64,000 bases of DNA, from assembly GCF_058153355.1 (NCBI RefSeq), contig NZ_CM177019.1; one strand, written 5' to 3'. The position numbers were made by a program. The first letter of the stretch is position 1, and each line of letters starts with the position of its first letter. Below, in pieces: positions 6,001 through 9,000 of the stretch.

Positions 6001-9000
6001 TACCAGCGGAAAGCCCGCCATTACTGGCCTTGTGCAAAAAAGTACGCAGAACATCCACCGGATACGAAACCGATACGTGGAATGCGTACCGCTCCCCCTA
6101 CTAACCCATTTCAACCCGGTAACCAGCAAGCAAACATTACGGTAAGCCAACAGACAAGCCAAACATTAAACCTAAGGCTACCCCTTCGAAGGTGCTTTGA
6201 AGGGGGGATTTAATACAGCATCTTTTTTGTGTGGCTGGTGGTGGGGATTAGCAAATTTTTGATCCTTACTACAGCATTTTTGAGCATCGTTTTTTCATCG
6301 ATTGTATGAGATATTTGGCATAGATAGACGGTAATGAACCGTGGTGAACGTTGATGAACGATGATAAGGAGATGAAACCAATGGCAGTTACTACCCTGAA
6401 CAGTGTGGCGGATTATCTGCTGTGCTTCGCTCAGGAGCACGGCGACGTAATGACGCCGCTTAAACTGCAAAAGATGGTTTTTTATGCTGATGCCTGGTAT
6501 ATGGCCTTAAATGAGGGACAGGAACTGATACCTGACCAGTTTGAGGCTTGGGTACATGGCCCGGTAGCCCGCGAACTGTATAGCCGTTTTGCTGATTACA
6601 AATGGCGACCAATTGATGAAGAAATACAGTGCCCTGAACTATCCGATGAAATTAAAAAACACCTGGATGAAATCTACCAGGTGTTTGGGGGGTACTCAGC
6701 TTATGAACTGGAACAACTGACCCATCAGGAAAAACCCTGGCTGTTAGCGCGTGAAGGTGTGCCGGCAGACGCGCCATGTCGGAATGTTATAGATAAAAAG
6801 GTAACGGCAGAGTTTTATCGTTCTATGGCATCGTGAGTATGGGAAAAGGAAGTATCAGGGCCGGGAAACTGGCCCAAAAGGGTAGCCGTATTACCGCAGG
6901 CGAAAATCATCAGGCTGTAACGACCATTAATTTTTCCTTTCGCTATATCGACGCAGATCATGAAAAATTCAGGTTTGCAGCCGAGGATTCTGCTTATTTT
7001 TGCAAGGTGCTTGACCGTCTGAAAGCTCTTTCCTCACTGACGGCTAATGAGTTTATGGCTGGGCGCAGTGCCGCCCTGAAATCTCATCCTATCGACTGGC
7101 GACACACATCTGAGCCGGAAGGCTTCACACACCTGAACGAGCAGTTTCAGAGCTATACGCCATATCAATTTGCTGTATCACGCAATGAGCATGGTCGGGT
7201 GCATGGTTTTTTTATCGGTAACGTGTTCCATGTTGTATGGCTGGATCCGCATCACCGGCTTTACCCTGGTAAATAATTTTCATGCTGGTGGTGTAATCAT
7301 CCACCAGCTTGATCACGGATAACAGGGGATGTGTAATCCCCAAGCGAGTGATAAATGTGTATAGAAATGTGTATAGAATCTATTTTAGAACTCGAGAATG
7401 TGCCTTTATTACTGGTCTTGTTGCTTGTTGTATTGTTCCCTTCGCCGCTCCAATTTATCTTCACCTCATCAATCTGCCATTTTTGCTGTATCTGATTTTC
7501 TATATTATCTTAATTCAATTGCTTCAGACTTTTCGCAATCGCTGTAACACTTCCCCATTTTTTTGTAAATAAAAGCGTTTACGCAATGCAATCCATTTGT
7601 AACAACCCAGGTAAAATACCTTATTTTCAAGTTGTTAAATAAGTGGTTATCTACGCTTTTAACAAACGATTGATGGAATCTTTGTAAGCGGCTCGCCAGA
7701 ACCGTATTGATATTTACTGAGAGCTCAGATCAACTTTCCAGGGCAACAGATCGCGTACCCGGTTTGCCGGCCAGTCCTGGATATGTTCAATGACGTAACG
7801 CAGCCACTTTTCTGGCTCCACATTGTTCAGACGGCATGTGCCGATCAGCGAGTACAACACCGCAGCATGTTCACCACCGCTGTCAGAACCCGCGAAGAGC
7901 CAGTTTTTCCGGCCTACGGCCACTCCCCGTAAGGCGTTCTCTGCGATGTTGTTGTCGATTTCCACCCAGCCATTACTGCAGTACACGTTCAGTGCATCCC
8001 ACTGTTTCAGCAGGTATGCGAACGCTTTTGCCGTGTCCGAGTGACGCGACAGTGTTTTCATCTGTTGCTGTATCCAGTCATACAGTGACTGCATCAGTGG
8101 CGCGGCTCTGGCTTTTCTTGCCGCCAGACGCTGTTCTGCTGAACAGCCCCGGACCTCTGCCTCGATGGCATACAGTTCACCGATACGCTGCAGGGCTTCC
8201 GTGGTGATGTCGGTGGGCACTCTTGCATGCACATCGTGGATTTTTCTCCGGGCATGAGCCATACATGCGGCTTCCGTTATTCTGCCGGATTCGTACAACG
8301 CCCGGTAACCACCGTAAGCATCGGCCTGAAGCACTCCGCTGTAACCGGCCAGATGATTCTGTGGATGGATACCTTTCCGGTCCGGGCTGTACGCGAACCA
8401 GACCGCCGGAGGCATTTCCGAACCGGCGTTACGGTCATCACGAACGTAGACCCACAGCCGGGCAGTCCTTGTTTTACCGCTGCCCGGCTCCTGGACCGGA
8501 ACGGGGATATCATCGGCATGGACTTTACCGGGCATCAGCACATACTGGCGCAGGATGTCATACAGCGGTTCCAGCAGTTCAGCAACAGCACCTGTCCAGC
8601 GCCCCAGTGTGGCACGGCTCAGCTCCACGCCCTGACGACGGTATATTTCTGACTGGCGGTATAACGGCAGATGGTCTGCATATTTTCCAGCGACAACATG
8701 GGCCAGAAGCCCCGCTCCGGCATAACTGCGTGCAATGGGTTTTGAAGGCACCGGAGCCTGCACGATATGGTCGCACCGGCAACAGGCCAGTTTCGGACGT
8801 TGTGTTTCGATAACCTTAAAGGCGCTGCTGATAAGCTCCAGTTGCTCTGACACATCACATCCCAGAGAACTGAGTTCGCCACCACAGGCCGGGCAGCATT
8901 CCTCTTCCGGACGGATGACCCGGGTTTCACGGGGAAGTGAGGCAGGTAACGGTTTACGGGCTGAAGACTGGCGCAGGGGAGATGGCAGTACCGGGTCATA

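What the first reader, a model, noticed from the sequence alone, without database searches (positions are those of the whole stretch)
7436..7453. tRNA-Gly 3'-end remnant marking the probable attR of the satellite
TTCCCTTCGCCGCTCCA matches the 3' acceptor/T-arm end of tRNA-Gly(CCC) as I recall it, apart from one deleted C, on the strand expected for glyU in this orientation. No intact tRNA gene is in the window, so the element would be integrated at glyU with the intact tRNA and integrase upstream of position 1. It places the satellite boundary about 230 bp from the ISEc8 insertion.
Basis: partly seen in the sequence, partly recalled or inferred. Interest (0 to 1): 0.45.

Follow-up and report, generated by a model that had tools for sequence, protein, structure and literature searches.

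The report
Right attachment site of a glyU-integrated phage satellite
This short tRNA-like sequence is the right-hand junction (attR) where a phage satellite (PICI) sits next to the glycine tRNA gene glyU, an ordinary feature; its "missing C" is a common trait of this satellite family, not decay.

Summary
Window 7436-7452 is TTCCCTTCGCCGCTCCA, the last 18 nt of E. coli glyU minus one C of the CCC run, on the expected strand. The window contains no tRNA gene.

The 231 bp to the right match the DNA directly downstream of intact glyU in more than 5,000 E. coli genomes. The 140 bp to the left occur in only 46 of 5,426 genomes, always as the right end of a PICI-type satellite at glyU. In those relatives the other end is intact glyU plus a P4-type integrase, with a 19-bp direct repeat. 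A metagenome contig carries the joined attP form.

The window's own left end cannot be seen. The window starts inside an IS110-family element that interrupts the satellite's primase.

One correction. The missing C is not local decay. About 43 satellite attR sites have CC and about 18-22 have CCC, while every attL examined has CCC. A different element's attR at the same tRNA showed CCC in all 60 cases examined. A Pseudocitrobacter satellite with an unrelated flank also has CC. The CC is therefore most likely the satellite's own copy of the core, which would place strand exchange in the last 6-7 bp, GCTCCA(A). That step is inferred.

This is a known kind of feature and of modest interest.

The parts
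1..97 (+). Right end of an IS110-family insertion sequence (ISSso6-like) that interrupts the satellite's primase gene
   Evidence: Window 1-105 is 100% identical to a multicopy repeat present in up to 18 copies per genome. In strain VL40 it lies just downstream of an annotated ISSso6 transposase. Homology to the uninterrupted primase of ETEC1738 starts at about window 98. The primase reading frame is closed before position 108.
98..833 (+). C-terminal fragment of the satellite D5/DUF5906-type primase (pri-rep)
   Evidence: Pfam Pox_D5 and DUF5906; PHROG DNA primase at E=1.6e-71. It aligns to the ETEC1738 primase gene.
1121..5513 (+). Satellite core genes, all on the + strand: small hypothetical, SSB (1375-1797), ProQ/FinO (1834-2367), PerC (2328-2651), DUF2213 protease-like (3714-4385), HTH/small-terminase-like (4392-4919), hypothetical (5223-5513)
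   Evidence: Pfam and PHROG hits. The same gene order is annotated in the related satellites of ETEC1738, cq9, HNSQ2209 and 08-00022.
6351..7276 (+). Cargo pair at the satellite's right end: SocA/Panacea-domain protein (6351-6836) and a 147-aa partner (6833-7276)
   Evidence: Pfam SocA_Panacea at E=2.6e-20. The pair is 97% identical to the right end of a related satellite next to yejO/narP in strain 'numer 3'.
7296..7435 (+). P arm: the right-end attachment arm of the satellite, with two direct ATGTGTATAGAA repeats at about 7355-7378
   Evidence: Found in only 46 of 5,426 complete E. coli genomes. The repeats and several other blocks are conserved across three arm families that otherwise differ by 20-30%, and in Pseudocitrobacter. 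TGYGTATAG occurs 3 times in the window against 0.6 expected, and two of the copies are here, 12 bp apart. Similar motifs lie in the integrase-side arm of relatives.
7436..7453 (+). attR core: TTCCCTTCGCCGCTCCAA, the CC form of the 19-bp direct repeat TTCCCTTCGCCCGCTCCAA
   Evidence: It matches glyU nt 59-76 plus one base. The direct repeat with attL is seen in ETEC1738, cq9, SCU-105 and ETEC1748. The CC form is present ungapped in at least 40 genomes.
7454..7683 (+). Chromosomal glyU-ygeQ spacer, the unchanged downstream flank of glyU
   Evidence: Window 7440-7683 aligns at 98-99% to genomes where an annotated tRNA-Gly lies under the start of the match. Alignment with K-12 and HNSQ2209.
7684..10152 (-). 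ISEc8 (IS66-family) insertion just upstream of the ygeQ/GH15 start codon, with an 8-bp target duplication GAATCTTT
   Evidence: Ends are GTAAGCG...CGCTTAC with the duplication at 7676-7683 and 10153-10160. Minus-strand ORFs of 523, 115 and 142 aa. No complete genome shares this insertion.
10162..11772 (+). Full-length glycoside hydrolase family 15 gene (ygeQ homologue) at the edge of the ETT2 island
   Evidence: A 536-aa ORF, the same length and position as the annotated GH15 gene in ETEC1738, cq9 and SCU-105. ETT2 lies next to glyU according to PMC2808357.

Best explanation
Window 7436-7453 is the core of attR, the right junction of a PICI-type phage satellite inserted by a P4-type tyrosine integrase at the 3' end of glyU (tRNA-Gly CCC). 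Window 98-7435 is the right-hand ~7.3 kb of the satellite. DNA to the right of 7453 is the normal glyU downstream spacer. The left part of the satellite, its integrase and the intact glyU (attL) would lie upstream of the window; this is inferred from relatives. The core is a hybrid. The stretch TTCCCTTCGCC, with two Cs instead of three, most likely comes from the satellite's own attP, which carries an imperfect copy of the tRNA end. Strand exchange would then take place in the last 6-7 bp, GCTCCA(A). That arrangement leaves glyU at attL with its own CCC, so the tRNA stays intact, and places the satellite's CC copy at attR. This particular copy is probably no longer mobile on its own, because its primase is split by an IS. 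Shown here: the identity of the site, both flanks, the family-wide att structure and the CC/CCC distribution. Inferred: the position of the crossover and the presence of attL in this genome.
For: The sequence matches the glyU 3' end.
The right flank is collinear with the flank of intact glyU in over 5,000 genomes.
The left 140 bp occur in only 46 of 5,426 genomes.
Complete relatives show actS-glyU-int-AlpA-...-primase-...-P arm-core-GH15-ETT2, with a 19-bp direct repeat.
The relatives' integrase has Arm-DNA-bind_3 plus catalytic domains, and AlpA and a D5-type primase are present.
An attP-type junction (P arm-core-P' arm-int) is found in the 14.5-kb metagenome contig Ga0209547_100127.
CC versus CCC:
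- About 43 genomes have the P arm with CC and about 18-22 have it with CCC.
- All of the top 22 attL matches are 100% identical and ungapped to the CCC form. attL is also CCC in each genome read directly (cq9, SCU-105, ETEC1738, ETEC1748).
- The attR of a second, unrelated element at glyU is CCC in all 60 listed of 147 genomes. Fisher p is about 3e-17, uncorrected for relatedness of the genomes.
- In ETEC1748 the CC stays with the P arm even when the right-hand neighbour is that other element.
- Pseudocitrobacter faecalis has a diverged P arm, the CC core and an unrelated flank.
- cq9 (CC) and ETEC1738 (CCC) encode the identical integrase protein.
Against: The window's own attL, glyU and integrase are not visible. 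The window starts in an IS, and IS-mediated rearrangement of a similar IS-split satellite is seen in strain VL40.
The only attP junction recovered has CCC, not CC.
CC and CCC both occur within each of three arm families. SCU-105 (CC) and CM163382 (CCC) are identical over 140 nt of arm and 230 nt of flank. The state therefore switches more often than simple inheritance with the arm predicts.
One unoccupied glyU (JNEC-KY171) carries the same missing C. An exchange confined to GCTCCAA would not produce that.
A 1-nt deletion next to the overlap shifts the register of the integrase half-site, and no experiment here shows that this is tolerated.
Confidence: 0.9

Rival explanations
1. The site is attR, but the whole 17-mer is the displaced chromosomal 3' end of glyU. 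In this reading the crossover lies to the left of the C run, and the missing C is decay that happened after integration because the copy is no longer part of a tRNA.
For: The one attP junction found has CCC. An unoccupied glyU with the same deletion exists and would then be an excision scar. CC and CCC occur on identical arm and flank haplotypes, as a recent mutation would.
Against: The same deletion would have to arise or spread into about two thirds of satellite attR sites, across three arm families and several flank haplotypes. The equally non-functional attR of the other glyU element is CCC in all 60 cases examined. CC is also present in Pseudocitrobacter with a different flank. In ETEC1748 CC sits between the P arm and the other element rather than next to the chromosomal flank.
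Confidence: 0.12
2. The site is attR and the C run lies inside the strand-exchange (overlap) segment. Recombination between a CC attP and the CCC attB would then give heteroduplex junctions that segregate at replication, and selection for a working glyU would keep attL CCC with attR CC.
For: It would explain attL always being CCC with attR often CC. It would also explain switching within arm families, a CCC attP and a rare glyU(CC) empty site. The C run sits in the middle 7 bp of the 19-bp identity block.
Against: From general knowledge of lambda-type integrases, tyrosine recombinases usually tolerate heterology in the overlap poorly, and length differences worst of all. This model would also dilute CC by about half in each excision cycle, which fits badly with CC being the majority and being present in another genus.
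Confidence: 0.1
3. The site is a chance resemblance, or an old tRNA pseudogene or ETT2-island boundary unrelated to the satellite.
For: ETT2 is known to lie next to glyU (PMC2808357), so an old island boundary could be expected in this area.
Against: No shuffle of the window reproduces the 17-mer. In unoccupied genomes the aligned position is the intact glyU itself, with no second copy. The boundary of the satellite-specific DNA falls exactly at the core.
Confidence: 0.01

Closest known systems
Gram-negative phage-inducible chromosomal islands (PICIs) of E. coli, e.g. EcCICFT073, EcCIEDL933, EcCIMP1 (Fillol-Salom 2018, PMC6092414; PMC11773190)
   Same: The gene set is integrase, AlpA, D5-type primase and PerC-family regulators. 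Genes are transcribed in one direction. Relatives are about 14-19 kb. Insertion is site-specific with short direct repeats, and cargo genes sit at the right end.
   Different: The attachment site is glyU. I found no paper naming glyU as a PICI site. EcCIMP1 uses a tRNA-Thr site with a 10-bp repeat. No helper phage or induction is known for this element. The copy in the window has its primase split by an IS. PMC6092414 says PICI sites are not used by prophages, yet glyU is shared with a second 13-kb element that carries a capsid gene.
P4-type tyrosine integrases that target the 3' end of tRNA genes, e.g. P4 at leuX (my recollection of Williams 2002, NAR 30:866; the paper could not be opened)
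   Same: The integrase has an Arm-DNA-bind_3 N-terminal domain plus the catalytic domain. The identity block runs from the T-loop to the 3' end of the tRNA, so the gene is rebuilt at attL. Repeated arm motifs flank the core.
   Different: In most copies the element-side core is imperfect (one C short). If element-borne, this confines exchange to the last 6-7 bp. The satellite gene content is not P4-like: no Psu, Sid or Delta hits among the ORFs scanned.
ETT2 island boundary at glyU in E. coli (PMC2808357)
   Same: It is the same chromosomal neighbourhood. GH15/ygeQ and the type III secretion genes follow directly after the site.
   Different: ETT2 has no second core copy here. The direct repeat belongs to the satellite and not to ETT2.

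Membership tests
attR of a tRNA-integrated tyrosine-recombinase element | Core identical or nearly identical to the 3' end of the target tRNA gene, on the tRNA's strand | tested here: met
   17 of 18 nt of the glyU 3' end with one C missing, on the + strand.
attR of a tRNA-integrated tyrosine-recombinase element | The DNA beyond the core is the normal downstream flank of the tRNA in unoccupied genomes | tested here: met
   Window 7440-7683 aligns at 98-99% to genomes with tRNA-Gly annotated under the start of the match. K-12 alignment.
attR of a tRNA-integrated tyrosine-recombinase element | A matching direct repeat at the other end, inside an intact tRNA gene next to an integrase gene | not testable with these tools
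   It lies outside the window, which starts in an IS. The only contig recovered for this strain (7.6 kb, Logan) is bounded by both ISs. The feature is met in relatives: 47 genomes have glyU(CCC) plus the P' arm, and an integrase gene is annotated next to glyU in each of the four complete relatives inspected.
attR of a tRNA-integrated tyrosine-recombinase element | An excised or joined attP form exists | tested here: inconclusive
   One metagenome contig has P arm-core(CCC)-P' arm-int. It comes from a relative, not from this element. It could be a circle, a concatemer or a tandem copy, and the contig ends do not overlap. None was found in viral contigs or complete genomes.
Gram-negative PICI | Integrase, AlpA and a pri-rep primase at the left end | tested here: inconclusive
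   Only the C-terminal part of the primase is in the window, and it is split by an IS. The integrase, AlpA and a full primase are present in relatives with the same right half.
Gram-negative PICI | One-directional gene order, about 10-20 kb, no full set of phage structural or lysis genes | tested here: met
   All assigned genes in window 98-7276 are on +. Relatives measure about 12.4 kb (cq9), 14.1 kb (ETEC1738) and 19.2 kb (SCU-105) from attL to attR. The only virion-related hits are a weak protease-like DUF2213 and a small-terminase-like HTH.
Gram-negative PICI | Induction and packaging by a helper phage | not testable with these tools
   This needs an experiment.
P4-like satellite | Psu, Delta, Sid and an alpha primase with the P4 gene layout | tested here: not met
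   No such Pfam or PHROG hits among the window ORFs or the left-half ORFs of ETEC1738. Only an Icd-like annotation is shared.

The most novel reading that the evidence does not exclude
The missing C is a conserved, element-borne feature of this PICI family's attP. It would then act as a natural marker that places strand exchange in the last 6-7 nt of glyU. Rare exchanges in the left 11-bp block would convert the satellite to the CCC form and, in the same event, leave a glyU allele with a 1-nt acceptor-stem deletion. That is the allele seen at the empty site of strain JNEC-KY171. Satellite traffic would in that case occasionally damage the host tRNA-Gly(CCC) gene.
Probability: 0.4. Interest if true: 0.4.

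Novelty: new member of a known kind. Interest (0 to 1): 0.3.

Why it matters
It fixes the right boundary of the satellite to the base. Window 7435/7436 is where the arm meets the core, and chromosomal DNA resumes by 7454. That separates the satellite's cargo, including the Panacea-domain pair, from the ETT2 island. It shows that glyU is a shared landing site for at least two unrelated integrative elements. It also corrects an easy misreading. An imperfect tRNA copy at an att site need not mean a decayed element. Here the imperfection appears to travel with the satellite, and it offers a simple sequencing test for where the integrase exchanges strands. None of this changes what is known about how PICIs work.

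Tried and rejected
Searches that added little:
- I looked for the window's own left end through the exact 85-aa protein. Only a 7.6-kb Logan contig bounded by the two ISs came back.
- No complete E. coli genome covers the junctions of this window, so the source strain is not in that collection.
- The scan of viral contigs for an attP junction found nothing.
- The scan of species-representative genomes for G+core gave 55 hits. Nearly all were genomes from unrelated bacterial groups, which I did not inspect further. I examined only Pseudocitrobacter (L028), and it proved relevant.
- The literature search for glyU together with PICI or satellite found no paper naming this site. Williams 2002 could not be opened.

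Ideas rejected:
- A chance match.
- An ETT2 boundary repeat.
- The missing C as a sequencing error.
- The missing C as generic decay of displaced cores.
- I looked for inverted-repeat symmetry around candidate overlap segments by eye. It was too weak to locate the integrase half-sites.

Full report
**1. The observation**

Window 7436-7452 on the + strand reads TTCCCTTCGCCGCTCCA, followed by A at 7453. K-12 glyU ends GGGTTCGATTCCCTTCGCCCGCTCCA. The window therefore holds the last 18 nt of glyU, from the last two T-loop bases through the CCA, with one C of the acceptor-stem CCC run missing.

The 17-mer occurs once in the window. With up to 2 mismatches allowed, it had no match in any of 100 shuffles. 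ARAGORN and Rfam find no tRNA in the window.

A Logan short-read contig, reported for 3 samples, is identical to window 77-7712, including the missing C.

**2. What lies on each side**

To the right, window 7440-7683 aligns at 98-99% to thousands of E. coli chromosomes. In those genomes an annotated tRNA-Gly sits under the start of the match. In unoccupied genomes this position is glyU itself. K-12 lacks about 78 bp of this spacer (window 7466-7543), and most strains have it.

The chromosome is then interrupted at 7684 by ISEc8 (7684-10152). The IS has an 8-bp target duplication, GAATCTTT, and lies 231 bp from the core, directly in front of the GH15 start codon.

To the left, window 7296-7435 occurs in only 46 of 5,426 complete genomes. 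Further left, the DNA matches satellites with the order primase, SSB, ProQ/FinO, PerC, DUF2213 and a terminase-like HTH protein. The satellite-specific DNA therefore ends exactly at the core.

**3. Complete relatives**

In ETEC1738, cq9, SCU-105 and ETEC1748 the order is actS, glyU, integrase, AlpA, AntA, Icd-like, DUF4222, primase and onward to the P arm, the core, GH15 and ETT2.

- attL is intact glyU followed by AACAAACATTTC and the integrase gene.
- attR is ...GTTGTATTG plus the core plus ATTTATCTTC.
- The direct repeat is TTCCCTTCGCCCGCTCCAA, 19 bp.
- The integrase has an arm-binding domain, a central domain and a catalytic domain. The 65-aa regulator is AlpA, and the primase is D5-type.

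This is the layout described for E. coli PICIs, which also commonly carry PerC-family genes (PMC6092414 and PMC11773190).

The P arm carries two ATGTGTATAGAA repeats. These are conserved in three arm families that otherwise differ by 20-30%, and also in Pseudocitrobacter. Similar motifs lie on the integrase side. They are likely arm-type integrase sites; this is an inference.

A 14.5-kb metagenome contig carries the joined form, P arm-core-P' arm-int. The family therefore exists in an excised, concatemeric or tandem state. The contig ends do not overlap, so circularity is not shown.

**4. This copy**

The window begins with about 97 bp of the end of an IS110-family element (ISSso6-like) that splits the primase. 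The integrase, AlpA and glyU would lie 8-9 kb upstream and cannot be seen.

Strain VL40 has the same IS-primase junction in a rearranged locus, so rearrangement cannot be excluded here. With a split primase, this copy is probably not able to replicate on its own; this is an inference.

**5. The missing C**

I expected the missing C to be local decay. The data do not support that.

- A 46-nt probe spanning the deletion finds ungapped matches in at least 40 genomes. It also finds 52F4, ETEC1748 and ETEC4090, giving about 43 CC-type attR sites.
- The CCC version of the probe finds about 18-22 satellite attR sites.
- All of the top 22 attL matches are 100% identical and ungapped to the CCC form. 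attL is also CCC in each of the four genomes read directly.
- Both forms occur in each of three arm families. SCU-105 (CC) and CM163382 (CCC) are identical over 140 nt of arm and 230 nt of flank.
- cq9 (CC) and ETEC1738 (CCC) encode the same integrase protein.

As a control, a second, unrelated 13-kb element also integrates at glyU with its own longer identity block. Its attR is present in 147 genomes, and all 60 listed are ungapped CCC. The contrast gives Fisher p of about 3e-17, uncorrected for relatedness of the genomes.

In ETEC1748 the CC core sits between the satellite's P arm and that other element, while the core next to the chromosome is CCC. Pseudocitrobacter faecalis has a diverged P arm, the CC core and an unrelated flank.

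The CC therefore follows the satellite's P arm and not the chromosome. The simplest reading is that most satellites of this family carry CC in attP, and that strand exchange happens to its right, in GCTCCA(A).

**6. What this reading does not explain**

- The only attP junction found is CCC.
- The state switches within arm families.
- One unoccupied glyU, in JNEC-KY171, has the same missing C. It is 73 nt long and is still called tRNA-Gly.

A rare exchange in the left 11-bp block would produce both a CCC attP and a CC empty site. This is speculation. A model with the C run inside the overlap is also possible, but it fits the persistence of CC less well.

Two genomes carry a 4-nt insertion, TCAA, immediately after GCTCCAA. 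This at least marks that point as a junction.

**7. Comparison and verdict**

This is the attR of a PICI-type satellite at a tRNA gene, which is a known kind of feature. I found no paper naming glyU as a PICI site. ETT2 next to glyU is already known.

attL is inferred from relatives. The missing C is a family trait, not decay.

Noticed in passing
window 1-97; L005 14001-14105: The right end of an IS110-family element (ISSso6-like) splits the satellite's primase. The same IS-primase junction, 100% identical over 105 bp, occurs in strain VL40 in a rearranged satellite between fiu and clpS. This reflects either a shared insertion event or the site-specific targeting typical of IS110 elements.
   Followed up: partly
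window 7684-10152: ISEc8 (IS66 family), with an 8-bp target duplication GAATCTTT, is inserted directly in front of the start codon of the intact 536-aa GH15/ygeQ gene. This probably separates the gene from its promoter. No complete E. coli genome shares this insertion.
   Followed up: partly
window 7466-7543 versus L003 (K-12): K-12 MG1655 lacks about 78 bp of the glyU-ygeQ spacer that the window and most E. coli carry. The segment is bounded by short TCGCC-like repeats.
   Followed up: no
L011 2944-3017 (E. coli JNEC-KY171): An unoccupied glyU site where glyU itself has the one-C deletion (73 nt; still called tRNA-Gly CCC by ARAGORN and by the genome annotation). It is the only such genome found. 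It may be an excision scar of a CC-type satellite or an independent mutation.
   Followed up: partly
L012 20029-33422; L009 about 800-6071: A second integrative element of about 13 kb also uses glyU. It carries a major capsid gene, a baseplate annotation, yecR and an integrase on the opposite strand, and it has its own longer identity block (GATTCCCTTCGCCCGCTCCA). It occurs in 147 genomes and can sit in tandem with the PICI in either order. PMC6092414 states that PICI sites are not used by prophages, so the nature of this element (phage, remnant or capsid-forming satellite) would be worth checking.
   Followed up: partly
L078 3501-3536 (plasmid pTB-nb1) and 57 other plasmid places: The glyU 3' end plus about 18 nt of its chromosomal flank is present on large plasmids. 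It lies between IS3 and IS1 copies, next to yecR and a recombinase fragment that resemble the second glyU element. A piece of that element with its attR appears to have been captured by plasmids.
   Followed up: partly
L079 160-190; L080 160-190 (E. coli F11, Ec-RL2-1X): These attR variants have a 4-nt insertion, TCAA, immediately after GCTCCAA, once with CCC and once with CC. Whether unoccupied genomes share the insertion was not checked.
   Followed up: no
window 6351-7276; L002 11956-12851: A Panacea (SocA-like) domain gene and an overlapping 147-aa partner form the right-end cargo. The pair is 97% identical to the cargo of a related satellite next to yejO/narP in another strain. The same cargo module therefore sits in satellites with different integration sites.
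   Followed up: no
window 49794-50078: The sRNA genes OmrB/OmrA match Rfam OmrA-B at 86 and 97 bits. They confirm the chromosomal context and the orientation of the window.
   Followed up: no
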